Position numbers and translations under genes: made by a program | In this document: positions 29,996 to 56,020 of the stretch, piece by piece | How positions within the stretch are numbered: position 1 is the first letter of the stretch | Layout of the letters: each line of letters begins with the position of its first letter | Notes under the pieces: generated by a model | Databases searched by the model: none | The model's input: only the letters and a program-made list of their open reading frames with translations | What the model was told of the DNA's origin: nothing | Source: Candidatus Daviesbacteria bacterium | GTDB lineage: Bacteria; Patescibacteriota; Microgenomatia; Daviesbacterales; UBA10151 | Direction: 5' to 3' | DNA length: 64,000 nt | Assembly: GCA_016186955.1 (NCBI GenBank) | Contig: JACPKP010000011.1 | Coordinates: forward strand, 12,477 to 76,476

Positions 29996-30003
29996 TAGGG
30001 ATA

Positions 30004-30031
30004 GTGTAAAGTGTAAAGTGTAAAGTGTAAA
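30004..30031. repeat. Heptanucleotide tandem repeat (GTGTAAA)x4
   Basis: gtgtaaagtgtaaagtgtaaagtgtaaa, 8 nt upstream of the ATG of 29354..29995 (minus strand). Confidence 0.8.
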
Positions 30032-30040
30032 GTAGTAACC

Positions 30041-30960: not shown

Positions 30961-31400
30961 TTAAAAAAGTGGTTATAGATTCTGATGCTATATATGCAAT
31001 TTATAACCATAATGATCCTTTACATAGTAAGGCAATTAAAACTTTACAGCTGTTGAATAAAACCCAAGTTCAATTAATTTATCCTACTTCGGTTATTTTT
31101 GAAGTCATGTCTTTATTCCAAAGAGTTCTCTCAGCACCTTCAGTAACAATAAAGATGGTAGATTTAATTAGCAGAGATCTTTTAATAATCTATGCAATAG
31201 ACAATGAGCTGCTTAAAGAAGCTACGAATATCTTTAAACCAGCTGGAAGTGAGCAAGCTCCTTCCTTCGGAAGTAAAAAGAATACCTTAGTGGATTGCTC
31301 AGTAGTGGCTGTGGCTAAAAAAATAAAAGCAGATGGTGTATTTTCTTATGATGAGTTTTATAAAAAACAAGGTCTAAAATTAGCTGAAGATTTAATTTAG
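30957..31400 (+). CDS. vapC: PIN-domain toxin (VapC), paralog of 2938..3348
   Basis: IKKVVIDSDAIYAIY; C-terminus FSYDEFYKKQGLKLAEDLI resembles 2938..3348 (FSFDKFYKSKGFKLASEL). Confidence 0.65.
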   Translation: MIKKVVIDSDAIYAIYNHNDPLHSKAIKTLQLLNKTQVQLIYPTSVIFEVMSLFQRVLSAPSVTIKMVDLISRDLLIIYAIDNELLKEATNIFKPAGSEQAPSFGSKKNTLVDCSVVAVAKKIKADGVFSYDEFYKKQGLKLAEDLI

Positions 31401-31555
31401 CCTTCTAAATTCTTCCAAAATCTCCCTCGGCGGTACCTGGTTGCCTGCCATCCATAGCTTTAGCAAGGGATGGACTATGTTGGAACCTTTTATCAAATCT
31501 CAACACAGCAAAAGGCCTTTGTTAACACATTAATTGTACGATAAAATTAGTTTTA

Positions 31556-38757: not shown

Positions 38758-38856
38758 AGGTAATTTTCAATTTACAATTAATTTTTAAACTGTTTAAAAA
38801 TTAAAACATTGATTATTGATTGAAAATTAGAAATTAAAAATTGAAAATTAAATTAA

Positions 38857-40518
38857 TTATTTTTTCTCAATATTATAGAGTGGGGACTTAATTGAGACAT
38901 ACCCCGGGGCCCGCAGGTTAAAGATGGTTTTAAAATCAGCCCCTGAAATGGTGATTGAACCTGTTTGGGTTGCAAAAGTCACGCTAGCTGTGCTTCCTCC
39001 CTCTGAATACACCACCGATGCACTGCTGACAGAGGTGACTGCCCCACCATGCTGGTTGGCTTTATCCCTCATCTCTGATATGGAAAACGGGTTTCCGCTC
39101 CAGCAGGATGTATCTACCGGGGAAATCCTATCCCGCGAGTCCCCGGACTGATAAACAATCCAGGAATTTAATATATCCGACATCTCTTCGTTATTCAACC
39201 AGGGATGGGACTTGCCGCAGGACGCTCCCAAACGGTCCTTATACCAACCTTTATAAAACCAGGGTGAACCGGCGATTTTTTCAAAAGCATCACCTGTCCA
39301 GCAATTCTTTGAACCGCATTTTGTATCCCAACCGCCATTGTTGGTATAACCTCCTGTTGTGGAAGAATACTGGGCGTTTGGCCCGCCTTCCAAAACCCAC
39401 CCTTTTGTCTCATTTACAGCCTCTTCCCAAGCTCCGCCTTTGTTTGAGTCTTTATAAACCTGGCACGACTCAGTCGGGCAGATTGAACCGCCCTGGCGCA
39501 CAGCATAAGTCCTGGCTGCCACAGCCTGGGCTTTGAGGGCTTCTTTGGGAAACGAGTTGGGCATTTCATAAATCCTTTTCATATACTCATCTTCAAAATT
39601 CCTACTCCCGTACCCTGATACATTGATGGTTGCAGGCACATTATAGCTTTTATTAAGTGAGGCCCCGGGATAATAGGCTGCCAAAATCTGCTCCGCATTT
39701 TGCCCTGAATCAGCCCTGCCTTTGGCGCCGTATTGGCTCATCCCGTTGCGGTGGGTATAAGCGCCAAACGAAAACATGGCAAAAGCAGGTGAAAAACCAG
39801 GGTTGAAATCAGGCCTGGCATTACTATCATCTGCCAACGGGACATCACCAACAGAGGTGGTAAAGGTGCCTGATTTGGCAGCTAATATCGCCTGTTGCCT
39901 GGCGGAGAGTTCCGCAATTTTACCGGAGAGATCTGCCTGATAATCTTTGGCTTTTTTTATTTCCCCACCTAAAAACACGGCGTTTTTATCTACCTGAGCC
40001 TGCAGGGAAGCAAGGGAAGCCTTGTCTTTTTCCAGTTTTTCTTTCTGGCTGAGCAGATCAACAATCTCGTCCGTAATAGAAGTTATTACTTTCTGGTCCT
40101 CCCTGGTTGCTGCAAGGCGGTAGGAGAGTTCCCGGAAAATACTGGCTGAGGATTGTGAGGAAAATAAAACAGTTAAGGGGTTGGTGTGGTAAGAGCGGAT
40201 GTAATATGAGCGAACCCGCTGTTCAAGCAAAACCTGCTGAAAGGCTATTTTTTCTGTCCTGGCTTCAAGGTCTTTTTCCTTCCGGGAGATTTTATAAGAA
40301 AGGCTGTAAAGGGAAGCCTGGATTTGGGCAAGCTGGCGCTTCAAAGAATCCAGCTGGCCTTCCAAAGGTTTGGTGGCATCAACGGACATCTTTTTAGCCT
40401 TCTCAAGCTCATTTATCTGTTTTTGCAGGTCCTCTACCTCATCAGCATGAATGGGAAAAGTAACAAGTAACAAGTAACAAGTAACAAGTAACAAAAATGG
40501 AAGAATAGTTTTTCTCAT
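38857..40518 (-). CDS. SpoIID/LytB-domain cell-wall protein with N-terminal coiled coil (EnvC-like)
   Basis: Signal peptide, long coiled coil, SpoIID signature EALKAQAVAARTYAVRQ. Confidence 0.6.
   Translation of the reverse strand: MRKTILPFLLLVTCYLLLVTFPIHADEVEDLQKQINELEKAKKMSVDATKPLEGQLDSLKRQLAQIQASLYSLSYKISRKEKDLEARTEKIAFQQVLLEQRVRSYYIRSYHTNPLTVLFSSQSSASIFRELSYRLAATREDQKVITSITDEIVDLLSQKEKLEKDKASLASLQAQVDKNAVFLGGEIKKAKDYQADLSGKIAELSARQQAILAAKSGTFTTSVGDVPLADDSNARPDFNPGFSPAFAMFSFGAYTHRNGMSQYGAKGRADSGQNAEQILAAYYPGASLNKSYNVPATINVSGYGSRNFEDEYMKRIYEMPNSFPKEALKAQAVAARTYAVRQGGSICPTESCQVYKDSNKGGAWEEAVNETKGWVLEGGPNAQYSSTTGGYTNNGGWDTKCGSKNCWTGDAFEKIAGSPWFYKGWYKDRLGASCGKSHPWLNNEEMSDILNSWIVYQSGDSRDRISPVDTSCWSGNPFSISEMRDKANQHGGAVTSVSSASVVYSEGGSTASVTFATQTGSITISGADFKTIFNLRAPGYVSIKSPLYNIEKK
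40460..40494. repeat. Heptanucleotide tandem repeat (GTAACAA)x5, coding-strand TTGTTAC, inside signal-peptide codons of 38857..40518
   Basis: gtaacaagtaacaagtaacaagtaacaagtaacaa encodes LLVTCYLLLVT. Confidence 0.85.
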
Positions 40519-40579
40519 ACGAGCTCTTTAAGCCATTTTACCACGTTGACAATGATTACAAAAGTAATATAATTGTATT

Positions 40580-40876
40580 ATGCATAGAACTATACTGCAG
40601 GTTCCACTACCTAAAGATCTTAAAGAAGGGGCTGAAAAAGCAGCCTTGGATGCAGGGTTCTCTTCTTTACAAGAAGTTTTGAGGGTGTTTATGAAAAAAT
40701 TTGCAAACAAAAAAATAGATCTATCATTTGAAGAAGAAAAAGTTGTTTACCTTTCTGAAAAAGCTGAAAAAAGATATACTAAGGCTATGGAAGATTTCAG
40801 AAAAGGTAAAAATGTCTATGAAGCAAAAGATGTAGATGATCTTTTAAAACAACTGCATAGCTACAGTGAAAATTAA
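40580..40876 (+). CDS. Putative antitoxin
   Basis: 98-aa acidic protein overlapping the RelE-like gene start. Confidence 0.35.
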   Translation: MHRTILQVPLPKDLKEGAEKAALDAGFSSLQEVLRVFMKKFANKKIDLSFEEEKVVYLSEKAEKRYTKAMEDFRKGKNVYEAKDVDDLLKQLHSYSEN

Positions 40877-41129
40877 ATTCTACAAACAATTCGTTAAACA
40901 TCTTACCCAAAGAGTTAAACCCAACCCAAGTTTACTGAAAAAGTGTGATGAAAGAATCGCTTTATTTATTAAAAACCCCAAAGATCCATTACTAAAAGAC
41001 CATAAGTTAATAGGGAGGAAAGAAGACTTTAGGGCATTTTCAATTACAGGCGATATTAGAATTATCTACCGACAAGGAGAGGATTACATCTATTTTATTG
41101 ATATCGGCTCCCATAACCAAGTATATTGA
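40866..41129 (+). CDS. RelE/ParE-family toxin
   Basis: ...DHKLIGRKEDFRAFSITGDIRIIYRQGEDYIYFIDIGSHNQVY matches the RelE/StbE C-terminal pattern. Confidence 0.55.
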   Translation: MKIKFYKQFVKHLTQRVKPNPSLLKKCDERIALFIKNPKDPLLKDHKLIGRKEDFRAFSITGDIRIIYRQGEDYIYFIDIGSHNQVY

Positions 41130-41173
41130 AATTTTACCCCAAACCCTAATTTTAAGTTATATTAATCAAATCC

Positions 41174-42973
41174 TTGCCCCTCTTCAAAATGCATGGTAAG
41201 CAAAGCTTGCCATTTCATGGTAAGCTGGGGTTAATGTCCAAACTGATATCAATTTTAGCAATACAATTGTTTGGTTTATGTATTATTTTAACTCCTACTA
41301 TAATTTTTGCTGATGAATCTTGCAATGTAAGTGGTGGGGGGCAACAAGGTACGGTTACAATTACCACTAAATTACTAAACCCAGTTATACCTCCTAATTA
41401 TGAAATAACATTCGAGCTTGATCCAAACGCTTTAGATATATTACGAGACCACAATATTGGTTTAGAAACCGGAGGTGGTTTTGGTGGAAGTTCAGTATAC
41501 ACAAACCCTATATCTGTAACCACAAGTAATATTGCTTTTGTAATAAGAGCTGGAAACATCAACCCTGATAACAACGATTCTTTAAGTAAATTCACTGACC
41601 CTGGAAAACATCAAATATCTATATACGAAGCTGCAGGAGGAAGTTCCGGAAGTACCGGGCGATCCAACATATGTTTAGCTTCAGCTGTTTTTGATTATGA
41701 AATTACAAACCCGAGGGTTTTAGAATGCAGTGGACAAATCACGGATAGCTCTACTTCTCAGGGGATTAATGGTGTAGTAATTGAAGTTTATGACGGAGCT
41801 GCTGCCAGCCCAACCCGTACATATAACGTCACCTCTGATGATGGTAAGTATGCTTTCAGACCATCTTCCGGTGGTTTTGGACCTGGCTCCCAACAAACAC
41901 ATAAGGTCATTTTTAAAAACAACGATTACCAAGATTATATTGTTGATTATCTATTACCTGTTACCCCACAAGCCTGTCCAGGAAATATTTCTCTAAAATC
42001 AGTGGCTTTAAAAGGATATGTTTGTGATAAAGGAACTTGCAGAGAATCAAACCCCGGAGAATCATCTAAATACCTGGACAATAATATGTGTAGTAAAGAT
42101 TGTGGTTTATATATTTATGATACGGGGAGATTATATTGTAGACCTGCTTTACCCAATGAAACAACAGGAATAATTTACAGTAAATCAGAATGCGAGGCAA
42201 AAACTCCCCTCGCAGGTACAGATAATTGTGTATATAACAAAACAGTAAATAAATGCGTATGCAACCCTAACTCTGTATCAGGTGGACAACCTCTTACAGA
42301 ATGCCTTAAAAAAGTAACTTCTTCAATTTATTCAGGCATAGACTGTTCAAAGCCTGAAAATAAAGACAAGTGCTCAACTTCTGCAGGACAGACATGTAAT
42401 ATCAATACCAATGAGGTTATAAAAATAGAAAATATTACCGCTAAAAAAGAAGACATGCCTAACACCAGGACCAACCCCATCTCAACATGCAGCGACGGAA
42501 CAGACCTGCGGGAAGTAGACAAAAGAACTGATAACCCTAACAGTTGTAACCCTGAAGCATCCTGCTACAAGGCTGTGACAGGTACAGGAGGTTTTGCTGC
42601 ATATTTTTGCTACAGGGAGCAAAAGACAGTAGCTGCTAAAACTACATATAGTGACAAAAATGGTAATCCGATAGATATGGACTCTAAGAATTTAGGTGTT
42701 TATACTGCCATTGGGTGTATCCCCACTGAGCCCTCAGCTCTAATTACTAAGCTTTTGACATTTGCTGCGGGAGGGGCTGGGGGGATTGCCCTTTTGCTTA
42801 TGATCTTTGGGGCTTTCAGGATGACGACCTCGGCCGGCAACCCGGAGAGCTTAAAAGCAGGCCAGGAACAATTTTCCTCCGCGGTAATAGGGCTGTTGTT
42901 TATTATTTTTGCAGTGTTGTTGCTGCAGATTATCGGGGTTGATATACTGGGATTGCCTGGTTTCACCAAATAA
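41174..42973 (+). CDS. Large secreted Cys-rich protein ending in a VirB2/TrbC-like pilin module (adhesin-pilin fusion)
   Basis: Signal peptide, then about 480 aa with more than 30 Cys. The C-terminal roughly 90 aa (TFAAGGAGGIALLLMIFGAFRMTTSAGNPESLKAGQEQFSSAVIGLLFIIFAVLLLQIIG) are homologous to the five downstream small TM-loop-TM proteins. Confidence 0.45.
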   Translation: MPLFKMHGKQSLPFHGKLGLMSKLISILAIQLFGLCIILTPTIIFADESCNVSGGGQQGTVTITTKLLNPVIPPNYEITFELDPNALDILRDHNIGLETGGGFGGSSVYTNPISVTTSNIAFVIRAGNINPDNNDSLSKFTDPGKHQISIYEAAGGSSGSTGRSNICLASAVFDYEITNPRVLECSGQITDSSTSQGINGVVIEVYDGAAASPTRTYNVTSDDGKYAFRPSSGGFGPGSQQTHKVIFKNNDYQDYIVDYLLPVTPQACPGNISLKSVALKGYVCDKGTCRESNPGESSKYLDNNMCSKDCGLYIYDTGRLYCRPALPNETTGIIYSKSECEAKTPLAGTDNCVYNKTVNKCVCNPNSVSGGQPLTECLKKVTSSIYSGIDCSKPENKDKCSTSAGQTCNINTNEVIKIENITAKKEDMPNTRTNPISTCSDGTDLREVDKRTDNPNSCNPEASCYKAVTGTGGFAAYFCYREQKTVAAKTTYSDKNGNPIDMDSKNLGVYTAIGCIPTEPSALITKLLTFAAGGAGGIALLLMIFGAFRMTTSAGNPESLKAGQEQFSSAVIGLLFIIFAVLLLQIIGVDILGLPGFTK

Positions 42974-43095
42974 TCTCAAAACTCAAATATCAAATGATAA
43001 ATCTACATCTTAAATTTTAAATCTTCGCAACCTTAAGATTTTAGATTTTAATTGTAGTTTTGACATTTGAGATCTCAGATTTGAGATTTAATATT

Positions 43096-43440
43096 ATGAA
43101 CAAGCTTGCTTTGACAATTGACAACAAAACTATTTCTCCCCCAACTAGCTTTAAACCTGAATTTACTGACCTTGGCTCTGTTATTACAGCTTCATTAAAC
43201 TTAATTTTTTATATTTCAGGGATGCTTTTGTTTATCTGGTTGGCCTGGGGGATCATGCAATATATCTTTGCAGGAGGGAATAAAGAAGCCCTGGCCAAAG
43301 CCCGGACCAGGATTATCTATGCCTTGGTCGGATTCATTATAGTAGTCCTGTCTTTCACCCTCAGTGAATACATCAAAGCTGTACTTAGCCCAACCAGTTC
43401 AATCCCGCAACCGCCAATCACACCAATCACACCACCATGA
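43096..43440 (+). CDS. VirB2/TrbC-like pilin paralog 1
   Basis: Start set at MNKLAL. TM - FAGGNKEALAKARTRI - TM. Confidence 0.45.
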   Translation: MNKLALTIDNKTISPPTSFKPEFTDLGSVITASLNLIFYISGMLLFIWLAWGIMQYIFAGGNKEALAKARTRIIYALVGFIIVVLSFTLSEYIKAVLSPTSSIPQPPITPITPP

Positions 43441-43805
43441 TTAAAAAGTTAGCCTTCATTAGTATAACGGTTATAACGTTTATAAATATTATATTTACAC
43501 ACCCTGTCTATGCTGAAGACCTTAAAAAACAATATGGTTTTGGCTGGATCACCAGTTTGGGGGATGTTATCAGCCGTAACATTGTCCCGGCCGGTTTTGA
43601 GATTGCCGGGATTGCACTCCTTTTTTATATAGTCATAGCAGCCATAAAGTACATGACCTCAGGCGGTGATAAAGAAGCTGTAGCTTCTGCCCGTGGCATG
43701 ATTACCCATTCTGTGATAGGATTTTTAATGCTGATATTTTTATTTTTATTTTTGCAGTACATCCTGCCCGCAATCGGGCTTAAAAATTTTATTATTGTAA
43801 GATAA
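43437..43805 (+). CDS. VirB2/TrbC-like pilin paralog 2
   Basis: Signal peptide (…THPVYA), then TM - MTSGGDKEAVASARGMIT - TM. Confidence 0.5.
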   Translation: MIKKLAFISITVITFINIIFTHPVYAEDLKKQYGFGWITSLGDVISRNIVPAGFEIAGIALLFYIVIAAIKYMTSGGDKEAVASARGMITHSVIGFLMLIFLFLFLQYILPAIGLKNFIIVR

Positions 43806-44125
43806 TGGCATACCTGGCAAAAAGTTTTCAAGATATTATCGGACAGATTACCCCTCCTGACCCTATCCAGGACATAGGCCGGGGAGGCCGGGGAATAAAT
43901 ACTGTCTTAAGCAATATCCTGACCATAATTTATATATTCGGGACAATCATTTTCCTATTTATGATTGTCATAAGTGCGGTTCAGTGGATTGTCTCAGGCG
44001 GTGATAAAGAAGTTGTCCAAAAAGCCCGCTCAAGGATAACTAATGCTATAATAGGTATAGTGCTTTTAGCGCTGGCAAGGTTTATTGTTTCGCTGATAGG
44101 CTCAATCACAGGGTTTAAAATCTAA
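43805..44125 (+). CDS. VirB2/TrbC-like pilin paralog 3
   Basis: TM - WIVSGGDKEVVQKARSRIT - TM. Confidence 0.5.
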   Translation: MAYLAKSFQDIIGQITPPDPIQDIGRGGRGINTVLSNILTIIYIFGTIIFLFMIVISAVQWIVSGGDKEVVQKARSRITNAIIGIVLLALARFIVSLIGSITGFKI

Positions 44126-44158
44126 ACAGTATATTGACAAACCTTAAATAACCTGCAT

Positions 44159-44587
44159 ATGATAATATTAATGAGATCAAAAGTTCTTAGTGTATTAGCT
44201 GTCGGTGCTGCTGTATTGCTAAATCCTATCTCTGTCTTTGCGCAGGATGATGTTAGAAATATTGGTTCTATAGCGCCATCTGCCAGCGGTCTTACGGGAA
44301 TTAATCCATCAACTACCTCTTTAGGTGATTTAATCAGAAATGCCCTTGTTATTATTTATATACTTGCAGCAGTAGCAGTTTTAGCTATGCTGGTTTTTGG
44401 TGCCTTCCAATGGATCACATCAGGAGGAGACAAGGAAGCTGTACAAAAAGCCAGAAGCAGGATAACTGCTGCTTTAGTCGGTATGGGTATTTTGGCTTTA
44501 GCATTATTTATCACTGTACTCATGGGACAAATATTGAATATCAATGTCTTAAATCTTCCAACCTTACCAACACTCGGTAATCCATAA
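44159..44587 (+). CDS. VirB2/TrbC-like pilin paralog 4
   Basis: Signal peptide (…VFAQ), then TM - WITSGGDKEAVQKARSRIT - TM. Confidence 0.5.
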   Translation: MIILMRSKVLSVLAVGAAVLLNPISVFAQDDVRNIGSIAPSASGLTGINPSTTSLGDLIRNALVIIYILAAVAVLAMLVFGAFQWITSGGDKEAVQKARSRITAALVGMGILALALFITVLMGQILNINVLNLPTLPTLGNP

Positions 44588-44629
44588 ACTCATTTGCCTA
44601 TTTCACTTATTCTGTAGTAATCTTAAGTT

Positions 44630-44932
44630 ATGGATGGGCCTGCCGGAATAAAACAGATACAAGAACTTATTTTGCGGGTAATAAACCTGTCTGTGGGGTT
44701 AGTGTTTTTTGTTTTGGTAATAGTCCTGGCCATAGGCGGGATTAAATTTTTAACCTCCGGGGGTGAGCAGAAAGCTGTCCAATCCGCCAAAAGCATGATT
44801 ACCTGGGGTATCCTGGGAGTTGTTTTTATGGGGCTGGCCTGGTTGATTTTAAGCCTGGTTGAAGCTTTTACAGGAGTCAAGGTAACCCAGTTTAACCTTT
44901 GTGTGTTGTTTCCAGGCGGTGTCTGCCCATGA
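44630..44932 (+). CDS. VirB2/TrbC-like pilin paralog 5
   Basis: TM - FLTSGGEQKAVQSAKSMIT - TM. Confidence 0.5.
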   Translation: MDGPAGIKQIQELILRVINLSVGLVFFVLVIVLAIGGIKFLTSGGEQKAVQSAKSMITWGILGVVFMGLAWLILSLVEAFTGVKVTQFNLCVLFPGGVCP

Positions 44933-45843
44933 TTAGTAAATTTCAAATTTCAAATTTCAAATTTCAAATTTCTTTATTTTTCCTTTTTACTTTTTCCTTT
45001 TTACTTTTTCCTTTACATGCTTTTGCCAGCCATTGTGATGCCTCAGGTAATTTTACCTCACTAAACAGCTACTGCGACCCCTCCACCAACACCATCTGGC
45101 AAGATGAGGTTGACTGCACCCATGCTGACACTGGCACAGCCTGCGCTATCCCCGCACCTGCAACCTGTCTGTACAATGAAACCTGTGACGCAGGACCGGG
45201 CCCTGCCAGCGGGGAACACACTTGCACAGGCACTAACCCAAATGAAGCCGGGCAACCCCAGTGCGGATATAACAGTGCAGTTGACCCTGCCTGCACAGCC
45301 TGCACAGCCAAAACACCTCCTGCGCCACCTGTTCCACCTCCAGCCCCGCCAGCTCCACCTGCTGGCGCCACCCCAACAGCAGCCATAGCTACAGAAAGCG
45401 CTGAGGAAGCAGCCATCAGGCATATGGATACAGGGTTAAAACCTGAGGAATTACCACAAGAAGCAGACGAGAAACCAGGGATCATCCAAATCATAGGGGA
45501 TTTTTTTAGCAATATAGGGAGGTTATTAAACAGAATGGTATCTTTTTTCCAAAATTCTCAGGGTTTGCAAACAGCCGAGCTTCCTGAACAAAATTGTAAA
45601 TCAAGCGATCCTGATAGTGCAGTAAGTAACTTTTTAGGGGATAGTGATTGTAAAGGAATCTATAACAGCACAACACCTGATGAACAAATTTTACCGAATG
45701 GAATAAAAGTCAGGGTTGGTAATATTGATATCCCAAAAACTGAACAGGCGAATGCTAAAGAGGAGGGTTTTGAGGATGCGTTTTTACCTGAAGGATGTAA
45801 TAAAATAACTACCGGTGATTGTAATATACCTATTAGCCCATAG
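44929..45843 (+). CDS. Secreted Cys-rich, Pro-rich protein
   Basis: Start set at MISKF. Signal peptide, Cys-rich module, PAPPVPPPAPPAPPA linker, second Cys-containing module. Confidence 0.4.
   Translation: MISKFQISNFKFQISLFFLFTFSFLLFPLHAFASHCDASGNFTSLNSYCDPSTNTIWQDEVDCTHADTGTACAIPAPATCLYNETCDAGPGPASGEHTCTGTNPNEAGQPQCGYNSAVDPACTACTAKTPPAPPVPPPAPPAPPAGATPTAAIATESAEEAAIRHMDTGLKPEELPQEADEKPGIIQIIGDFFSNIGRLLNRMVSFFQNSQGLQTAELPEQNCKSSDPDSAVSNFLGDSDCKGIYNSTTPDEQILPNGIKVRVGNIDIPKTEQANAKEEGFEDAFLPEGCNKITTGDCNIPISP
44938..44972. repeat. Heptanucleotide tandem repeat (TTTCAAA)x4 inside the first codons of 44929..45843
   Basis: aaatttcaaatttcaaatttcaaatttcaaatttc encodes SKFQISNFKFQIS. Confidence 0.85.
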
Positions 45844-45883
45844 TTGACAGCTTGTATACTTTGTGTTATAATTTATTAGTTTT

Positions 45884-46441
45884 ATGGCTACTGAAACTTC
45901 ACCTGAAATCAGGCAAACTAAAAGATATTTGCCAAGAGCCGGACGCAGAAATTTTTTGAAGCTTCTTGGAGGAGTATCTTTAGCATCTCTTGTTGCTGCA
46001 TGCGCACCTCAACCTGTAGCACAAATAGCATCTGTGCCTGTTGAATCTAAACCTATAATCAATCCTCCAGCTAAACCCGAAATAAGATTGCAAAACATGG
46101 AAACTCCAGAAAATAGGGCTAAAGAGTGGTTTAATTCAGTATCAACAGGGAATAAAGACCTTTACAAGGCTCAATTTCCTGCAAATGATCCTCCGCTGCC
46201 ACTTCCTGAAGGATTAAGAAATCGTTACACAGAGTGTGATATTAATTCAAACTCAACAAAAATATTGCCTCCTATTAATTTATCTGATGGGACAACTAAG
46301 TTGGTTGTTGATTTTAATAAAAATTGTATTAAAAATGGAGCTGGAGTAGGTGAATATAGATATATTATCTTTAAAATGAAAAAAGATCAAAATGGACATA
46401 TCACTGTTATATCTGCCAATCCTGATATTACTCCAAACTAA
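45884..46441 (+). CDS. Putative Tat-signal lipoprotein
   Basis: RRNFLKLLGGVSLASLVAAC is a twin-arginine motif followed by a lipobox-like LVAAC. Confidence 0.4.
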   Translation: MATETSPEIRQTKRYLPRAGRRNFLKLLGGVSLASLVAACAPQPVAQIASVPVESKPIINPPAKPEIRLQNMETPENRAKEWFNSVSTGNKDLYKAQFPANDPPLPLPEGLRNRYTECDINSNSTKILPPINLSDGTTKLVVDFNKNCIKNGAGVGEYRYIIFKMKKDQNGHITVISANPDITPN

Positions 46442-46504
46442 ATTTACTGCCCTAAGCCATAAGTGCACTTGCAAAAATCCTTGGGTTTGAGGTAGTCTTA
46501 AAGT

Positions 46505-48316
46505 ATGGCTGCCCGGGAGTTGGTTATTAGTTCATGGTTTGTAGTTTATAGAAAAATTTTTCTCTTTTTTGTTTTACTTGTTACTTGTTACTTGTTACTT
46601 GTTACTTATCTTCCGCCCGCTTTTGCCCAGGGAACACCTCCTGCAGCAGGTACAACTTCTGCAGCCGGTACAACCCCTGCAGCTGCCCCCTGGAACGCCC
46701 AAAACCAGTCCAATTTCACCTCTCAAACCCTCCAACATGCAATCCTTTGCGACCTGGTATTTATGAGCCCATTGGGCAGGTGTGTCGGCTTTGAAAAAGA
46801 CCCGTCCAAAAAAGACGGTGTTAAAGTAAGCCTGTACGGACCGCAGTTCGGGGGAGCGCTGGGAAGTTTGACTAATATGGCGGTTGCCCTTTACCAACCC
46901 CCAACCTCCACAGTTTATTACCTGGCTGATGTGGCCAAAGGGTTTGGGATTATCACCCCAGCCTATGCCCAGGTTACCGGCTCAGGAGCAGGGATTATAG
47001 AACCTGTTAAAAAACTGTGGGAGGTGATGCGCAATTTTGCTTATCTGGCATTTATTATTATCTTTTTGGCGATCGGTTTTATGATCATGTTCAGGCAAAA
47101 ATTAAACGCCCAGACGGTTTTGACAGTCCAGGCAGCATTACCGGGGCTGGTACTGAGCCTAATCCTGGTATTTTTAAGTTATTTTATTGCAGCTTTTTTA
47201 ATTGACCTGGCTTTTTTAAGCGTCCAGATCCTGGCTTGGCTTTTTATACAAAACGGGCTGGCAAACTCTTTTGGTGATGCAGCGGGAATACAAAGCCTGG
47301 CCCAAAATTCTAATATCCTGGAACTATTTAAAAACAGCTTCCGGTTTGAAGCATTTGGAGAGGTTACGGGTGGAGTATCCGGTACTGTAAATTCAGTGTT
47401 TGGCGGGTCTGCTGCAGGACCAAATGCTTTGGCTATTATCATACCTGCAATTATCGGTTCAGTTATTGCATTTTTTATTTTTCCACCTGGAGGTTTGGTC
47501 GCACTTGGTGTTACTGCTGGTGGTGGAGCTGCTGCCGGCCTTTTGGCGCCTCTTATAATAGGCCTGCTCGTGCCTTTAATATTAATTATTGCCTTGGCTA
47601 TCCAGTTTTTTAAACTGCTTTTTAAGCTGATCATGGCTTATGTCATGTTGCTGGTGACAACAATCCTCGGCCCGCTGCTGATTTTAGTCAGCGCAGTACC
47701 CGGTAAAGGAACGTCATTGTCTTTTTGGTGGAAAAACCTGCTGGGTAATGCCCTGGTTTTTCCTGCTGTATTCGGGACTTTTTTATTTGCAGGGATGATC
47801 CTGGCCACAGACCCTTCAGCTTGGAAAGCCAGCCCCCCGCTTTTTGGCGGGCTCTCCACCGAACTTTTGAGGCTGATCATCGCTTACGGGATAATACTGG
47901 GCACACCAGCTGTACCTGATATGGTAAAAAAGATGATAGGAGCAGGGGATCTTGGAGAGATAGGCAAAACAGGCGCAGCCGGGTTCTTTGCAGGGTTTGG
48001 GGTAGGCAAGGGTGCAGGGACAGCTGGAGTTAATAGATTACTGGCGCCAACTATGCAACTTAGAAATGAGCGCAGAACCTTGCAAGAACAGGCCGCTCTT
48101 GGTAAGTTAGGTCCATTGGGTGAGGCAAGGCTTGCGGCGCTTCAAAGAGGCGCTTATAATGTTTATCCAACAGGGAAAAAGAACAAACAGGGTGAATATG
48201 AGAGGGATACCGAAGGTAACCTGGAAACCGAATCAAGGGGTAGAACATGGTGGCCAAGCAAGATCCAAAGATGGCTGGTTGAAACCGGAAATAAAGCCTG
48301 GTCAGGAAAAAAATAA
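46505..48316 (+). CDS. Polytopic Gly-rich membrane protein, VirB6/TrbL-like candidate
   Basis: Signal peptide, at least six TM helices and Gly-rich loops. Position within the T4SS-like locus. Family call by topology only. Confidence 0.35.
   Translation: MAARELVISSWFVVYRKIFLFFVLLVTCYLLLVTYLPPAFAQGTPPAAGTTSAAGTTPAAAPWNAQNQSNFTSQTLQHAILCDLVFMSPLGRCVGFEKDPSKKDGVKVSLYGPQFGGALGSLTNMAVALYQPPTSTVYYLADVAKGFGIITPAYAQVTGSGAGIIEPVKKLWEVMRNFAYLAFIIIFLAIGFMIMFRQKLNAQTVLTVQAALPGLVLSLILVFLSYFIAAFLIDLAFLSVQILAWLFIQNGLANSFGDAAGIQSLAQNSNILELFKNSFRFEAFGEVTGGVSGTVNSVFGGSAAGPNALAIIIPAIIGSVIAFFIFPPGGLVALGVTAGGGAAAGLLAPLIIGLLVPLILIIALAIQFFKLLFKLIMAYVMLLVTTILGPLLILVSAVPGKGTSLSFWWKNLLGNALVFPAVFGTFLFAGMILATDPSAWKASPPLFGGLSTELLRLIIAYGIILGTPAVPDMVKKMIGAGDLGEIGKTGAAGFFAGFGVGKGAGTAGVNRLLAPTMQLRNERRTLQEQAALGKLGPLGEARLAALQRGAYNVYPTGKKNKQGEYERDTEGNLETESRGRTWWPSKIQRWLVETGNKAWSGKK
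46574..46608. repeat. Heptanucleotide tandem repeat (TTACTTG)x4.9 (same unit as 40460-40494) in signal-peptide codons of 46505..48316
   Basis: ttacttgttacttgttacttgttacttgttactta encodes LLVTCYLLLVTY. Confidence 0.85.
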
Positions 48317-52297: not shown

Positions 52298-53377
52298 ATG
52301 GAAGCACATCCTGTCCCGCAAAATATAACCAATTTTGAATTCCACCTGGTTGGGGATATGACCTTAAAACAATTCGGGTATCTGGCTGGAGGTTTGGGGT
52401 TTGCATATATGATCTTTTTCCTTTTTGCCACCTCATTCCCGTTTGTTGCCTGGCCAATTGTCATAATTTCAGTAATCATCGGAATATCGTTTGCTTTTTT
52501 ACCCATCCAGGAACGCCCTCTTGACCATTGGGTTAGCGCTTTTTTTAAAGCTATTTTTAGGCCGACAAAATTTAATTATAAATCTGACATCGTTATAAAA
52601 GAGGACCCTTTTTTTAAAAAAAGGTTAGAATTTTTTCTCTCACAATTATCTGCAACCCCTGTAATTGGGCTTTCATGGGGGGATACACCTACTATAACTC
52701 CGCCTCCCCAACCTAAACCTGTTATAAAACCCGCCGTACAAGAGGTTAAAAAGGAAGCTGTCTCTCCGGCTGAACCTGTCAAACTCCCTGCCCCTGCTGA
52801 CTCTAAACTTCCAACCCAGGAAGACCTGAAAGCAACAGTCGAGCTGGCTGATAAAGCCCAAATAATCCGTAAAAAAATTACAGAAACAGAAGAGCAGTTA
52901 AGCCGGGTAAAAGCAAGGGCGATAGCGCCCGGAGAAGATAAAGAACTATTTGCTAAAGATTTCCAGGTTATTTTAAACAACCTGCAAAAATTAAACAGTG
53001 AAGCCGGCGAAATATCAAAAAAACTGGCAGTGCTTTCCAAAACGCCTATCAAAACACCAGCCATTGCCACCCCGGCAAAAAGCATGCCAACAATCAGTTT
53101 AACTGCTGTCCCTAATATCTTAAACGGGATTGTGACAGACCTTCAGGGAAATTATATAGAGGGTGCAATCCTGGTAGCCCATGACAAACAAAATTTACCT
53201 GTCCGGGCTTTAAAAACCAATAAGCTTGGCCAATTTATTGCCGCCACCCCCCTGCCCAACGGCGACTATGTTGTCACCTGCGAAAAAGATAATTTAATTT
53301 TTGACGTTATAAAAATAGAATTTTCAGGACAGGTGCTGCAACCTGTGATAATTTCAGCTAAAAAAGGAGCGCTCTGA
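52298..53377 (+). CDS. PrgI/VirB3-like two-TM protein fused to coiled coil and carboxypeptidase-regulatory-like beta-sandwich
   Basis: N-terminal GDMTLKQFGYLAGG, two TM helices and IQERPLDHWVSAFFKAIFRPTKFNY resemble the PrgI-family GLTxRQ...G.P.E.W...lrf signature. C-terminal GIVTDLQGNYIEGAIL...LPNGDYVVTCEKDN is CarboxypepD_reg-like. Confidence 0.35.
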   Translation: MEAHPVPQNITNFEFHLVGDMTLKQFGYLAGGLGFAYMIFFLFATSFPFVAWPIVIISVIIGISFAFLPIQERPLDHWVSAFFKAIFRPTKFNYKSDIVIKEDPFFKKRLEFFLSQLSATPVIGLSWGDTPTITPPPQPKPVIKPAVQEVKKEAVSPAEPVKLPAPADSKLPTQEDLKATVELADKAQIIRKKITETEEQLSRVKARAIAPGEDKELFAKDFQVILNNLQKLNSEAGEISKKLAVLSKTPIKTPAIATPAKSMPTISLTAVPNILNGIVTDLQGNYIEGAILVAHDKQNLPVRALKTNKLGQFIAATPLPNGDYVVTCEKDNLIFDVIKIEFSGQVLQPVIISAKKGAL

Positions 53378-54183
53378 TGGATACCACACAAAATTACCTG
53401 CCAATCAAAGATATTTTAAATGATTTAATTATTTTAAAAGACGGTAGTGTTTCTTGTGTGATTAAAACTTCCGCAGTCAACTTCGGTCTGATTTCAGAAA
53501 ATGAGCAGCTGGCGATTATATCCTCCTTTGCAGGACTTTTAAATTCATTGTCTTTTTCTATACAGCTGGTGATACGTTCAAAAAGGCTTGATATATCAAG
53601 CTATCTGAAACTGCTTGATGAATCAAGGAATAAACAAAACAACCCGCTGCTGCGTGATATGATGGGGCGTTACCGTACTTTTATTGAAAGTGTGATCAGG
53701 GAAAATGAGGTTTTAGATAAACAGTTTTATGTGGTGATCTCTGTTTCATACCTGGAGTTGGGGGTTATCAATAATATAGAAAAGCATTTCTCTAAAGCTA
53801 TAACAATACTCCTGCCAAGAAGGGATCATGTAATAAGGCAGCTTGAAAGAATCGGCCTTAAGGCAACTCAACTCAACACAGAAGCTCTAACCAGGCTTTT
53901 TTTTGATATTTTCAACGGGGACGGGCAACAACAACCAGACCGGAAACTTCAGGTTGAACCACTAATCACACAACCACAAACATCAGTACCAAAGGCTGCT
54001 GTGTTACTAAAACCACAAGTACAACCGCAGGCACAAACCCAACCAAAAAATCCACCGCCACAGCCGCAAACCATCAAAACACAATTTTCCCCGCCTGTCA
54101 TAAATGACCAACCAAAACCTGTCACCAGGTCATCCATGCCTTTTGTTGTAGAAGAACTGCCTGATGAATACAGCAGTGTATAA
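53377..54183 (+). CDS. VirB4 N-terminal-domain-like protein (split virB4, part 1)
   Basis: DGSVSCVIKTSAVNFGLISENEQLAIISSFAGLLNSLSFSIQLVI resembles the N-terminal domain of VirB4/TrbE. Overlaps the upstream gene (TGATGG). Ends in a Pro/Gln-rich tail 50 nt before the ATPase ORF, which is in a different frame. Confidence 0.35.
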   Translation: MDTTQNYLPIKDILNDLIILKDGSVSCVIKTSAVNFGLISENEQLAIISSFAGLLNSLSFSIQLVIRSKRLDISSYLKLLDESRNKQNNPLLRDMMGRYRTFIESVIRENEVLDKQFYVVISVSYLELGVINNIEKHFSKAITILLPRRDHVIRQLERIGLKATQLNTEALTRLFFDIFNGDGQQQPDRKLQVEPLITQPQTSVPKAAVLLKPQVQPQAQTQPKNPPPQPQTIKTQFSPPVINDQPKPVTRSSMPFVVEELPDEYSSV

Positions 54184-54232: not shown

Positions 54233-56020
54233 ATGGACATATCTTTTGTCACACCACCTAAGCCAAAAACACCCAAACAGGATTGGCCGCCTGGGGGAAA
54301 AACAGGCGGCAAACTCTCTATTGCTGATGTGCTGGCGCCGGCAGAGGTAGAGGTTGATTTTTCTTTTCTCAGGATCAACAACTCACTTTACAGGTCTTTC
54401 TTTGTTTCAGCTTACCCCCGGTACGCTGAACCAAATTGGCTTGAGCCTTTGATTGATTTTGACCATTCACTGGATATTTCAATGTTTATCTATCCCTCAA
54501 CCTCAAAAACAGTCCTGGATGACTTAAAAAGAAAGATAGCTGAGATGGAAGCCACCATCCAAACGGATATCGAAAGAGGGAGGGCTATAAATCCATCAGT
54601 GCAGGTAGCGCTTGATGATGCCAGGGCATTGCAAGACCAACTCGTAAAAGGGTCTGAAAGGTTTTTTAGGCTGGGGCTTTATATAACAGTGCCTGTGCAA
54701 AAAAAGCCCGCAGCTGATGAAGATTTAAACAATATCTCTGAGCTGGTAGAATCTACACTGGGATCCATCTCTATAACCGCCAAAAAAACCACACTCCAGA
54801 TGGAAGATGCTTTTATCTCCACTATACCTTTGGGTATAGATAGGTTGAACCTAAACCATAATATGGATACCACCTCACTTGCCACCACATTCCCTTTTAC
54901 TACATCGGAACTGACTGCAAATGAAGGGATTATGTACGGAATTAATGAACACAACGGGTCTTTGGTGGTGTTTGACAGGTTTTCCCTGGAAAACTATAAC
55001 TCTGTAGTTTTTGCAAAAGCCGGCGCCGGTAAGTCTTATTTTGTCAAGTTGGAAATTTTAAGATCCCTTATGTTTAATACACAGGTGATTGTAATTGACC
55101 CTGAGCATGAATATATTAAGCTTAGTGAGGCTGTCGGGGGAGAGTATATAAATTTCACATCAGAATCACCTGTTAAAATAAACCCTTTTGACCTCTCTAA
55201 TGTTTTAGAAAGCGGTGAAAATGAACTGGGCAGAAAAATATTAACCTTAACCGGTTTTTTAAAGCTGGTTTTAGGGGAATTAACTTCTTCACAATCCGCT
55301 GTCTTAGATAGGGCGTTATCTAACACTTACCGTCTTAAAGGGATTACCGCTGACCCCCAAACACAAAAACTGGCGCCTCCTTTAATGGAAGATTTGTATA
55401 AAGTTTTAATCGGGATGGAGGACCCTAATGCTAAAGAACTGGCATTCAGGCTGGAAAGGTTTATTAAGGGGTCGTTGGCAGGAATATTTTCTGCACCCTC
55501 AAATATTAACCTTAATAACCAAATGGTGGTTTTTTCAGTCAGGGACCTGGCTGACCAGCTCCGCCCTTTAGCTATGTACTTAATACTTGATTATATCTGG
55601 ACAAAAATCAGGGCAAACCTGCAAAAAAGGCTACTGGTTGTTGATGAAGCCTGGTATATGATGAAAAACCCTGATAGCGCGCAGTTTTTAGTAGAGATGG
55701 CCAAAAGGGCCAGGAAATATTATCTCGGGGTCACCACTATTACCCAGGATGTTGAGGATTTCCTGGCAGAAGACAGGGGTAAAGAAATTATTTCTAATTC
55801 ATCAATACAAACCCTGTTAAAACAAAGTCCTTCTTCAATTGATAAAATAGGACAAGTTTTTAACCTGTCAGAAGGGGAAAAACACCTGCTTTTATCTGCA
55901 GGTGTAGGCCAAGGCCTTTTCTTTGCCGGCCCTTCGCATGTAGCCATCCAGATAGTGGCCTCACCTGAAGAACACCAGCTGATCACCTCCAACCCTGCTG
56001 AACTTATAGCTAAAAACTAA
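54233..56020 (+). CDS. virB4: VirB4/TrbE/PrgJ-family T4SS ATPase (ATPase domains)
   Basis: YRSFFVSAYPRY...WL...ISMFIYP region, Walker A VFAKAGAGKSYFVK, Walker B LLVVDEAWYMM, C motif VTTITQDVEDF. Confidence 0.75.
   Translation: MDISFVTPPKPKTPKQDWPPGGKTGGKLSIADVLAPAEVEVDFSFLRINNSLYRSFFVSAYPRYAEPNWLEPLIDFDHSLDISMFIYPSTSKTVLDDLKRKIAEMEATIQTDIERGRAINPSVQVALDDARALQDQLVKGSERFFRLGLYITVPVQKKPAADEDLNNISELVESTLGSISITAKKTTLQMEDAFISTIPLGIDRLNLNHNMDTTSLATTFPFTTSELTANEGIMYGINEHNGSLVVFDRFSLENYNSVVFAKAGAGKSYFVKLEILRSLMFNTQVIVIDPEHEYIKLSEAVGGEYINFTSESPVKINPFDLSNVLESGENELGRKILTLTGFLKLVLGELTSSQSAVLDRALSNTYRLKGITADPQTQKLAPPLMEDLYKVLIGMEDPNAKELAFRLERFIKGSLAGIFSAPSNINLNNQMVVFSVRDLADQLRPLAMYLILDYIWTKIRANLQKRLLVVDEAWYMMKNPDSAQFLVEMAKRARKYYLGVTTITQDVEDFLAEDRGKEIISNSSIQTLLKQSPSSIDKIGQVFNLSEGEKHLLLSAGVGQGLFFAGPSHVAIQIVASPEEHQLITSNPAELIAKN

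What the first reader, a model, noticed from the sequence alone, without database searches (positions are those of the whole stretch)
44938..44972. (TTTCAAA)4 heptamer repeat in the first codons of a secreted Cys- and Pro-rich protein
A 28-35-nt tract of 7-mers encodes SKFQISNFKFQIS directly after the start codon of ORF 44929..45843. This gene follows the pilin array immediately. It is a third frameshift-prone 7-mer tract in a secreted-protein gene of the same locus, but with a different repeat unit. That argues for selection for switchability rather than a single duplicated sequence.
Basis: seen in the sequence. Interest (0 to 1): 0.7.

Follow-up and report, generated by a model that had tools for sequence, protein, structure and literature searches.

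The report
Seven-base repeat switch in secreted protein
A perfect five-copy 7-base repeat lies in the first codons of a secreted-protein gene beside the pilin genes of an uncultured Candidatus Daviesbacteria bacterium; gaining or losing one copy breaks the reading frame, so it most likely acts as a mutational on/off switch like those of Neisseria and E. coli K1, and relatives carry similar repeats in the same genes.

Summary
(AAATTTC)x5.0, perfect, lies at 44938-44972 in codons 4-15 of ORF 44929-45843 (NCBI HYW46_06770, Candidatus Daviesbacteria). These codons encode the n-region of a signal peptide. The ATG overlaps the stop codon of the last of five T4SS_pilin genes. Only 2, 5 or 8 copies keep the frame; other copy numbers end after 24-49 residues. 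The nearest ortholog differs in this region by exactly 21 nt, 2 copies against 5. Orthologs in three further species carry heptamer tracts with other units in the same signal peptide.

Across Daviesbacteria-like loci, 18 of 21 coding period-7 runs lie in the first ~40 codons. Periods 5, 6 and 8 are almost absent. k=31 assemblies of several sequencing runs break inside the tract, although a clonal 35-nt tract should assemble through. That suggests length heterogeneity.

Best reading: a slipped-strand, translational phase-variation tract, mechanistically like Neisseria opa (CTCTT in the leader peptide) and E. coli K1 neuO (a heptanucleotide repeat after the start codon). The setting is a Patescibacteria type IV secretion/pilin locus.

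Caveats: no reads were examined, five copies is short, and every assembled ortholog is ON. A tolerated slippage by-product remains a serious rival.

Verdict: new member of a known kind.

The parts
44938..44972 (+). Perfect heptanucleotide tract (AAATTTC)x5.0. It covers codons 4-15 (KFQISNFKFQIS), the n-region of the signal peptide. The frame stays open only with 2, 5 or 8 copies.
44929..45843 (+). Gene for a 304-aa secreted Cys/Pro-rich protein (NCBI HYW46_06770, hypothetical). It belongs to a small family with a conserved C-terminal half (GLLPEE...GVYS..PE...YEQANFPEGCNPITG) and always lies directly after the last pilin gene.
   Evidence: No Pfam, NCBIfam or PDB match.
44929..45027 (+). Signal-peptide coding segment (33 codons). 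It comprises the n-region MISKFQISNFKFQIS, the hydrophobic core LFFLFTFSFLLFPL, and HAFA|S. This reading is by inspection; no predictor was run.
   Evidence: searches (hydropathy; N-terminal helix 4-26), and sequence inspection.
44977..45014 (+). Second, imperfect heptamer tract (TTTTTCC/TTTTTAC)x5.4, equivalent to a 14-mer x3. It encodes the hydrophobic core of the same signal peptide. The order of unit variants differs from the ortholog (C-A-C-A-C here, A-A-C-C-C in L008).
44630..44932 (+). Last T4SS_pilin gene. Its TGA overlaps the ATG of the tract-bearing ORF (ATGA), which implies co-transcription and translational coupling.
43060..44932 (+). Array of five VirB2-like T4SS_pilin genes (PF18895). 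It is preceded by 41174-42973, a 599-aa protein with a near-threshold pilin-like C-terminus (26.5 bits, cut-off 26.6).
46574..46607 (+). Companion tract (TTACTTG)x4.9 in the signal peptide (LLVTCYLLLVT) of the 603-aa multi-pass membrane protein 46505-48316, inferred to be the VirB6-like subunit.
   Evidence: Orthologs carry other units.
40458..40494 (-). Companion tract (GTTACTT)x5.3 in codons 9-20 of the SpoIID-domain protein 38857-40518. It has the same unit and reading phase as 46574-46607.
30003..30033 (-). Non-coding heptamer tract ((TTACACT)x4.4 on the gene strand), about 8 nt upstream of the ATG of membrane-protein gene 29354-29995.

Best explanation
The tract is a slippage-prone heptanucleotide simple-sequence repeat in the first codons of a secreted protein encoded with the pilins of a Patescibacteria type IV secretion locus.

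During replication, slipped-strand mispairing adds or removes 7-nt units. Because 7 is not a multiple of 3, each single-unit change shifts the frame. Translation then ends after 24-49 residues (OFF). Alleles with 2, 5 or 8 copies make the full protein, with an n-region that is 7 residues shorter or longer (ON).

The repeat itself has no stop codon in any sense frame and encodes the same cyclic peptide (KFQISNF) in each. The tract is therefore always translatable, and only the downstream frame changes. The outcome would be heritable, reversible ON/OFF variation of one surface or secreted component. The tract is one of several such tracts in this locus, and relatives have them in the same gene families.

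Shown: the tract, its position, the in-silico frame consequences, a 3-unit difference from an ortholog, the recurrence of heptamer tracts in orthologous signal peptides, and the 5'-end bias.

Inferred: that the copy number varies within the population at a useful rate, and that this variation is selected.
For: (1) The array is perfect, 5.0 copies. The chance expectation is 0 in 200 simulations, and period 7 is the only period with long perfect arrays in the window.

(2) Frames: only n = 2, 5 or 8 give the 297-, 304- or 311-aa protein. All other n from 0 to 9 give 24-49 aa.

(3) The start codon is upstream of the tract and conserved. It overlaps the pilin stop as ATGA in the window, L008 and L061, and the two also overlap in L010.

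(4) The ortholog L008 differs by exactly 21 nt inside the tract. This is the only indel in ~160 nt of ~90% identical DNA. The adjacent second tract has reshuffled unit variants.

(5) The same gene family carries (CTACCAG)x4.0 in L061, (ATACCCT)x3.1 in L063 and (TTACTAC)x>=4.1 in L012, all in the signal peptide. The neighbouring 603-aa family carries (GTTACTT)4.9, (AGTTCAG)4.1, (AGTTACC)3.3 and (GTTCATN)2.7-2.9 in different species.

(6) In 294 kb of Daviesbacteria-like loci there are 30 perfect period-7 runs of at least 17 nt, against 2, 3 and 0 for periods 5, 6 and 8. Non-redundantly, 18 of 21 coding runs lie in the first ~40 codons (binomial P = 2e-12). In 1.46 Mb of other Patescibacteria loci only 1 run lies there. 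In-frame periods (6, 9) would be better tolerated in a signal peptide, yet they are not the ones found.

(7) Logan k=31 contigs, all 100% identical to the window, end inside the tract. L001 and L003 stop after agt+(AAATTTC)4, where a 4-copy allele would branch from a longer one. L002 stops after 30 nt of repeat, as expected if an allele of 6 or more copies, or another source of pure-repeat k-mers, is present. L004 starts inside the tract. A clonal 35-nt tract shares no 30-mers with itself and should assemble through. The unique 31-nt AGTGTAA tract also terminates a contig.

(8) Known precedents use the same design: opa CTCTT repeats in the leader-peptide region (PMC3960869) and the neuO heptanucleotide repeat just after the start codon (PMC3046976).
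Against: - No reads were available, so copy-number heterogeneity is indirect. L004's first k-mer, c(AAATTTC)4tt, fits neither simple branch model exactly. Foreign k-mers from other community members could also break the graph.
- Five copies is short beside opa or neuO tracts, so switching may be slow.
- All orthologs found in nine loci (about seven distinct genomes), and all tract-bearing genes examined, are in the ON frame. If the OFF state were often favoured, some consensus assemblies should be OFF.
- Near-identical assemblies (L010/L062; L064/L067/L048; at least 99.7% identity) show no tract-length differences.
- The Patescibacteria T4SS cluster was reported essential for epibiotic growth in one Saccharimonadia strain (PMC12102498). 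This makes OFF states of the companion VirB6-like gene look costly.
Confidence: 0.6

Rival explanations
1. Tolerated by-product. A lineage-specific tendency to generate and expand 7-nt tandem duplications acts all over the genome. Tracts survive only where they do little harm, namely in intergenic DNA and in signal peptides, which tolerate net 21-nt (7-aa) length changes and low-complexity sequence. Frameshifted variants arise but are simply deleterious. No switching is selected.
For: - Every assembled ortholog and every tract-bearing gene is ON.
- Copy numbers are low, 2.4-5.3.
- Period-7 arrays also fill intergenic regions of this genome: 23548-23660, 26640-26736, 38761-38853, 42972-43089 and 30003-30033.
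- Degenerate, apparently decaying tracts exist, for example SSWFVVYR in the 603-aa protein, derived from GTTCATG units.
- Units within one genome resemble each other. In L061 three genes encode LLATSYQ. This suggests concerted mutational turnover rather than locus-specific design.
Against: - If tolerance alone shaped the pattern, in-frame periods (3, 6, 9) should dominate in signal peptides. Instead, the first 40 codons hold 21 period-7 runs, 0 of period 6 and 1 of period 9.
- A tract can grow from 2 copies only through out-of-frame intermediates, so OFF states must at least be survivable.
- The contig breaks suggest that several lengths coexist.
- The affected genes are the class that is classically phase-variable: secreted or surface proteins of a pilus/secretion locus.
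Confidence: 0.3
2. The tract is a cis-acting nucleic-acid element at the translation-initiation region. It would be a binding array for an RNA- or DNA-binding regulator, like the TAACTGA heptamer direct repeats just upstream of start codons in Beggiatoaceae. Its coding capacity would be incidental.
For: - Heptamer direct repeats close to start codons are proposed as post-transcriptional regulator sites in PMC4679880.
- One tract in this window (30003-30033) is indeed non-coding and lies about 8 nt upstream of a start codon.
Against: - Units differ between genes and between species: AAATTTC, GTTACTT, AGTTCAG, CTACCAG, ATACCCT, TTACTAC. No single binding specificity could be conserved.
- Positions range from codon 5 to codon 27, inside n- or h-regions.
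- The tract shows no significant single-strand structure (z = -0.5).
- TAACTGA contains stop codons and is never coding; these units are stop-free in the sense strand.
Confidence: 0.05
3. The tract drives programmed -1 ribosomal frameshifting. A_AAT_TTC fits the X_XXY_YYZ slippery-heptamer rule and falls in the zero frame at codons 9-11.
For: The formal motif match is read directly from the sequence.
Against: - Both shifted frames terminate within 23-30 codons after the tract and encode only short hydrophobic peptides.
- No downstream structure is predicted.
- None of the other heptamer units in this locus or in orthologs is slippery.
Confidence: 0.02

Closest known systems
Neisseria opa genes: CTCTT pentameric coding repeats in the leader-peptide region (PMC3960869)
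   Same: - A tandem repeat whose unit length is not a multiple of 3.
- It lies inside the signal-peptide coding region of a surface or secreted protein.
- It is translatable in every frame.
- A change in copy number shifts the downstream frame ON or OFF.
- Several loci per genome carry such tracts.
   Different: - The unit here is 7 nt rather than 5.
- Only 5 copies are present here.
- The unit differs from gene to gene and from species to species.
- The host is an uncultured groundwater Patescibacterium, not a mucosal pathogen.
- Switching has not been measured.
E. coli K1 prophage gene neuO: heptanucleotide AAGACTC repeat just after the start codon (PMC3046976)
   Same: - A heptanucleotide unit placed within the first codons.
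- The gene is ON only in one residue class of copy number modulo 3.
- In-frame alleles add 7-residue heptads to the N-terminus.
- The tract has no stop codon in the sense frames.
   Different: - neuO is a cytoplasmic acetyltransferase, and its heptads are part of the mature enzyme. Here the heptads lie in a cleaved signal peptide.
- neuO copy numbers are 2-93, against 2 and 5 observed here.
- neuO is a single mobile contingency locus. Here there is a lineage-wide set of tracts in chromosomal T4SS-locus genes.
Beggiatoaceae/cyanobacterial intergenic TAACTGA heptamer direct repeats (PMC4679880)
   Same: Heptamer direct repeats, 2-6 copies per set, concentrated at gene 5' ends and abundant in one lineage.
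   Different: - TAACTGA is one fixed unit. It contains stop codons, is intergenic, and is proposed as a regulator-binding site.
- The present tract is coding, its unit is not shared with the other tracts, and its obvious consequence is frameshifting.
- Only the 30003-30033 tract of this window resembles that class in position.
Patescibacteria MPF-FATA-like type IV secretion clusters with VirB2-like pilin arrays near oriC (PMC12102498)
   Same: The genomic setting matches: a T4SS_pilin array, PrgI/VirB3, TrsD-like and VirB4 ATPase genes, all within 20 kb of dnaA/dnaN.
   Different: That description does not contain the terms 'phase varia', 'tandem repeat' or 'frameshift'. The tract-bearing 304-aa family is not among the components it defines.

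Membership tests
SSR-mediated translational phase-variation (contingency) locus | Perfect tandem repeat, with a unit length that is not a multiple of 3, inside the reading frame near the 5' end | tested here: met
   (AAATTTC)x5.0 with 100% matches in codons 4-15. The start codon is upstream and conserved.
SSR-mediated translational phase-variation (contingency) locus | Gain or loss of one unit abolishes the full-length product; specific copy numbers restore it | tested here: met
   In-silico alleles from n = 0 to 9: full length only at n = 2, 5 and 8; otherwise 24-49 aa.
SSR-mediated translational phase-variation (contingency) locus | Copy number differs between strains or relatives | tested here: met
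   The ortholog L008 has 2 copies against 5, an exact 21-nt indel. This is an inter-species comparison only; the proteins are 47% identical.
SSR-mediated translational phase-variation (contingency) locus | Copy-number heterogeneity within one population (mixed ON/OFF cells) | tested here: inconclusive
   k=31 contigs from three runs (SRR12113422, -24, -30) break inside the tract, at positions expected for 4-copy and 6-or-more-copy alleles. One break position does not fit either model, and no reads were seen. Near-identical assemblies of other species show no tract differences.
SSR-mediated translational phase-variation (contingency) locus | Measured high-frequency reversible switching of the phenotype | not testable with these tools
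SSR-mediated translational phase-variation (contingency) locus | The product is surface-exposed or secreted, or modifies the surface | tested here: met
   N-terminal K-containing n-region, 14-residue hydrophobic core and AFA|S motif. The gene lies in a pilin/T4SS locus. This rests on inspection; no signal-peptide predictor was available.
neuO-type heptanucleotide 5' coding repeat | 7-nt unit within the first codons, ON in one class of copy number modulo 3, stop-free unit | tested here: met
   The tract codons AAA TTT CAA ATT TCA AAT TTC contain no stop. Compared with PMC3046976. This shows the same design, not homology.
TAACTGA-type intergenic heptamer direct repeats | One conserved unit repeated at many loci, non-coding, immediately upstream of start codons | tested here: not met
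   The tract is coding, and its unit is unique in the window. Units differ among loci and species.
-1 programmed ribosomal frameshift site | Slippery X_XXY_YYZ in the zero frame, plus a productive -1 frame ORF and a downstream stimulator | tested here: not met
   The motif is present formally. The shifted frames end within 23-30 codons, and there is no structure.

The most novel reading that the evidence does not exclude
Candidatus Daviesbacteria (Microgenomatia, Patescibacteria) may possess a lineage-wide 'phasome' built specifically from heptanucleotide repeats. These repeats lie in the signal-peptide codons of proteins of the pilin/type IV secretion locus: the post-pilin secreted protein, the VirB6-like membrane protein, a SpoIID-like wall enzyme, and some pilins.

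The units appear to evolve in concert within a genome and to turn over between species. This would give these episymbionts combinatorial ON/OFF control of the apparatus thought to mediate host contact. It would be the first contingency-locus system described in the Candidate Phyla Radiation.
Probability: 0.35. Interest if true: 0.75.

Novelty: new member of a known kind. Interest (0 to 1): 0.58.

Why it matters
Phase variation by simple-sequence repeats is known almost entirely from host-adapted pathogens. In the literature library searched, no paper combines Patescibacteria with 'phase-variable', none combines Daviesbacteria with 'tandem repeat', and the listed hits of a search on phase variation, Candidate Phyla Radiation and simple sequence repeats include none on CPR.

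If the heptamer tracts switch, ultra-small episymbiotic bacteria would diversify the secreted and membrane components of the pilin/T4SS locus stochastically. That locus was reported essential for epibiotic growth in a cultivated relative (PMC12102498). The switching could bear on host range, attachment versus dispersal, or escape from pilus-targeting phages.

It is directly testable with existing reads.

There is also a practical consequence. These tracts fragment short-k assemblies at exactly these genes, and frameshifted alleles would be annotated as pseudogenes.

Tried and rejected
- Exact-protein look-ups. The ORF, the 213-aa gene, the 609-aa gene and the 87-aa gene had no contigs on record. 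Neighbouring genes had to be used instead.
- Exact DNA scan of JGI metagenome contigs for ATGATTAGTAAATTTCAAATTTC gave 0 hits, so no strain-level alleles were found there.
- Cluster look-up of the four tract-associated proteins showed all to be singletons, so there were no in-frame length variants to compare.
- Near-identical assembly pairs (L010/L062; L064/L067/L048) were compared for tract-length differences. None was found, but at 99.7% identity or more they are essentially the same populations.
- Function of the protein. Pfam, NCBIfam and a PDB profile search gave nothing. The AlphaFold2 model, built on a 17-sequence alignment, had pLDDT 65 and pTM 0.26, too poor for a fold search.
- Single-strand DNA folding of three tracts gave no significant structure.
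- Programmed -1 frameshifting was considered because AAATTTC fits X_XXY_YYZ. It was rejected because the shifted frames are dead ends and the other units are not slippery.
- Derivation of the tract from the AT-rich intergenic period-7 palindromes was considered (77-87% similarity). It was judged uninformative because both are low-complexity sequences, and the 2-copy seed is conserved in L008.
- A search for OFF-state (frameshifted) orthologs of the family among all fetched loci found none.
Full report
**1. The observation**

The window has 39% G+C. Tandem Repeats Finder reports 44938-44972 as period 7, 5.0 copies, 100% matches, unit AAATTTC. An exact-run scan gives the same result. It also shows that period 7 is the only period from 4 to 15 with long perfect arrays in the 64 kb. 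The four arrays are 30003-30033 (AGTGTAA x4.4), 40458-40494 (AAGTAAC x5.3), 44938-44972 and 46574-46607 (TTACTTG x4.9). In 200 first-order Markov simulations of the window, no heptamer run of 3 or more copies appeared. The tract is therefore real and not a chance feature.

**2. Position in the gene**

The sequence reads ccc ATG ATT AGT AAA TTT CAA ATT TCA AAT TTC AAA TTT CAA ATT TCT TTA. The ATG at 44929 overlaps the TGA of the preceding gene (ATGA).

The product is MISKFQISNFKFQIS-LFFLFTFSFLLFPL-HAFA|SHCD..., 304 aa. It has a Lys-containing n-region, a 14-residue hydrophobic core and an AXA motif. The tract supplies residues 4-15.

There is no in-frame ATG, GTG or TTG between the tract and the hydrophobic core. 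A secreted product must therefore start upstream of the tract. The only alternative start is TTG 44899, which is also upstream.

The mature part has 14 Cys and 31 Pro in 271 residues. NCBI annotates the same 304-aa protein as HYW46_06770 of a Candidatus Daviesbacteria MAG.

**3. Context**

Five upstream ORFs (43060-44932) match Pfam PF18895 T4SS_pilin; 41174-42973 has a near-threshold match at its C-terminus (26.5 bits, cut-off 26.6). The ORF at 38857-40518 has a SpoIID domain.

Downstream lie, in order:
- a 603-aa multi-pass membrane protein (inferred to be VirB6-like),
- PrgI/VirB3 (52298-53377),
- a TrsD-like protein (53377-54183),
- a VirB4/TraG P-loop ATPase (54233-56020),
- a C39-like peptidase,
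- dnaN and dnaA.

This is the monoderm-type T4SS cluster with a VirB2-like pilin array near oriC that has been described for Patescibacteria. It was reported essential for epibiotic growth in one cultivated Saccharimonadia strain (PMC12102498). That paper does not contain the terms 'phase varia', 'tandem repeat' or 'frameshift'.

**4. Consequence of copy-number change**

I built alleles with 0-9 copies. Only n = 2, 5 and 8 give the full protein (297, 304 and 311 aa). All others stop after 24-49 residues.

The unit has no stop codon in any sense frame. Three units encode the heptad KFQISNF, so the tract is always translatable and only the downstream frame changes.

**5. Orthologs**

The family is small: 2 proteins in the 5.8-billion set and 19 cluster representatives in the 1.84-billion set.

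The closest relative is P0002 on L008, a GTDB species representative, 47% identical. It starts MISKFQISLF.... The DNA alignment shows a single indel of exactly 21 nt (three units) inside the tract, in otherwise ~90% identical sequence with the same ATGA overlap. The second, imperfect heptamer tract that encodes the hydrophobic core (44977-45014, TTTTTCC/TTTTTAC) has five units in both genomes. The order of the unit variants differs: C-A-C-A-C here and A-A-C-C-C in L008.

To obtain more loci I used the conserved 603-aa neighbour as a probe. The gene directly after the last pilin belongs to the same family in all of them, with a conserved C-terminal half (alignment A1). Its signal peptide carries:
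- (CTACCAG)x4.0 in L061,
- (ATACCCT)x3.1 plus one imperfect copy in L063,
- (TTACTAC)x>=4.1 in L012, where the contig ends inside the tract.

The 603-aa family shows (GTTACTT)4.9 here, (AGTTCAG)4.1 in L010/L062, (AGTTACC)3.3 in L061 and (GTTCATN)2.7-2.9 in L064/L067/L068. It shows none in L008. The SpoIID-domain family shows the pattern too.

**6. Systematic count**

In 294 kb of Daviesbacteria-like loci, perfect runs with at least 10 matched positions number 30 for period 7, against 2, 3, 0 and 4 for periods 5, 6, 8 and 9. Of the 24 period-7 runs that lie inside ORFs, 21 fall in the first 40 codons.

After duplicate assemblies are removed, 18 of 21 coding runs fall there, where 15% would be expected (binomial P = 2e-12).

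In 1.46 Mb of loci from other Patescibacteria there are 16 period-7 runs, and only one is in the first 40 codons.

The key point is that in-frame periods would be better tolerated in a signal peptide than period 7. Yet period 7 is what accumulates.

**7. Indirect evidence for heterogeneity**

Logan contigs (k = 31) from several runs of one project are 100% identical to the window, but they begin and end at the heptamer tracts:

| Contig | Window coordinates |
|---|---|
| L001 | 40465-44965 |
| L002 | 43879-44967 |
| L003 | 44014-44965 |
| L004 | 44944-46603 |
| L005 | 44979-46603 |
| L006 | 45030-46603 |
| L127 | 30004-31486 |

Breaks at the GTTACTT tracts are expected, because two loci share that unit and one tract is 37 nt long.

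The AAATTTC tract is different. It is 35 nt and unique in the window, so it shares no 30-mer with itself and should be a linear path in the graph.
- L001 and L003 end exactly at agt(AAATTTC)4. That is the node where a 4-copy allele would diverge from a longer one.
- L002 ends after 30 nt of repeat. That is the signature of pure-repeat k-mers with a second predecessor, meaning an allele of 6 or more copies or another source.
- L004 starts at c(AAATTTC)4tt. This proves that an allele of at least 5 copies is present in that run. However, it is one node away from either simple prediction, so the graph is not fully explained.

The unique 31-nt AGTGTAA tract also starts a contig, with exactly 30 nt of repeat.

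This suggests length heterogeneity but does not prove it. k-mers from other community members could produce the same breaks.

**8. Evidence on the other side**

- Every ortholog of the family found in the fetched loci (nine loci, about seven distinct genomes) is in the ON frame and has a signal peptide. So is every tract-bearing gene examined.
- Assemblies that are at least 99.7% identical (L010/L062; L064/L067/L048) have identical tract lengths.
- Copy numbers of 2.4-5.3 are low beside the 2-93 copies of neuO.
- Period-7 arrays also occur in intergenic DNA of this genome.

A lineage-specific heptamer-slippage process whose products are merely tolerated in signal peptides therefore remains a serious rival (confidence 0.3).

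**9. Other rivals**

- A regulator-binding array like the Beggiatoaceae TAACTGA repeats (PMC4679880) is unlikely. The units differ between genes and species, and positions range from codon 5 to codon 27.
- Programmed -1 frameshifting is formally suggested by A_AAT_TTC. It is rejected because both shifted frames are dead ends and the other units are not slippery.
- No single-strand structure is predicted.

**10. Comparison with known systems**

The design matches two well-studied cases.
- Neisseria opa genes carry CTCTT coding repeats in the region that encodes the leader peptide. They switch by slipped-strand mispairing at about 1e-3 per cell per generation (PMC3960869).
- E. coli K1 neuO carries the heptanucleotide AAGACTC two nucleotides after the start codon. 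It is ON only when the copy number is a multiple of three, and in-frame alleles add heptads to the N-terminus (PMC3046976).

The present tract combines the unit length of neuO with the leader-peptide position of opa.

I file it as a candidate member of the class 'SSR-mediated translational phase-variation locus'. The structural criteria and the inter-species length difference are met. Within-population variation is inconclusive, and the switching rate is untestable here.

**11. Novelty and score**

The mechanism is classical. The lineage and the system are new: Patescibacteria, and the pilin/T4SS locus. So is the lineage-wide preference for heptamer tracts in signal-peptide codons. The library holds no paper combining Patescibacteria with 'phase-variable', none combining Daviesbacteria with 'tandem repeat', and none of the listed hits of a search on phase variation, Candidate Phyla Radiation and simple sequence repeats is on CPR.

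I rate it a new member of a known kind, with interest 0.58. The most novel reading not excluded is a Daviesbacteria heptanucleotide 'phasome' that controls T4SS-locus surface components. I give that reading a probability of 0.35.

Noticed in passing
window 40455-40515 and 46550-46610: A 61-nt inverted repeat, 85% complementary, with a perfect (GTTACTT)n core of 34-37 nt. It lies in the 5' ends of two divergent genes, the SpoIID-domain gene and the 603-aa VirB6-like gene, in the same reading phase (LLVTCYLLLVT). Recombination between the arms would invert the 6-kb pilin segment and swap promoters and N-termini in frame.
   Followed up: no
window 23548-23660, 26640-26736, 38761-38853, 42972-43089: A family of AT-rich, imperfectly palindromic intergenic elements (~90-120 nt) built from period-7 units. 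26682-26736 and 43035-43089 are 82% identical. 23548-23639 and 38762-38853 are 73% complementary. The ortholog locus L008 has only a 6-nt spacer where the window has 42972-43089.
   Followed up: partly
window 30003-30033: Perfect (AGTGTAA)x4.4, which is TTACACT on the gene strand. It lies in the 45-nt spacer about 8 nt upstream of the ATG of membrane-protein gene 29354-29995. It is non-coding, because no start codon lies upstream in the open frame. A Logan contig (L127) begins with exactly 30 nt of it.
   Followed up: partly
L061 2286-3956 (-), 9160-9693, 9725-11599: In this relative, three different genes (SpoIID-like, the post-pilin family, VirB6-like) have signal peptides with related heptamer units that all encode LLATSYQ-type heptads. 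Units are similar within a genome but differ between genomes. This suggests concerted evolution or gene conversion of signal-peptide tracts.
   Followed up: partly
window 46520-46560; L064 2265-2297; L068 4080-4099; L010 6057-6130: The n-region motif SSWFVV(Y/H)R recurs in different secreted proteins of different species. It appears to be a decayed (GTTCATG)n heptamer tract, and more perfect versions (2.7-2.9 copies) survive in L064, L067 and L068.
   Followed up: partly
window 33348-33398 vs 46520-46570: A 51-nt stretch, 71% identical with a 17-nt exact core (GTTATTAGTTCATGGTT), is shared between the antisense strand of an unannotated 230-aa ORF (33233-33925, minus strand) and the 5' end of the 603-aa gene. 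This may be chance.
   Followed up: no
window 53377-54183 and 54233-56020: The VirB4-like function is encoded as two ORFs. One is a TrsD-like N-terminal protein and the other is the P-loop ATPase, consistent with the TrsD + VirB4 arrangement described for Patescibacteria.
   Followed up: partly
window 45314-45372 and 46640-46683: In-frame repeats of period 21 and period 18 encode Pro/Ala/Thr-rich linkers in the same two proteins. Repeats with periods that are multiples of 3 therefore occupy linkers, while period 7 occupies signal peptides.
   Followed up: no
L010 7128-7130 vs L062 9724-9857: Two assemblies that are 99.8% identical differ by a 132-nt insertion/replacement just after the signal peptide of the VirB6-like ortholog. 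The insertion changes the first extracellular segment.
   Followed up: no
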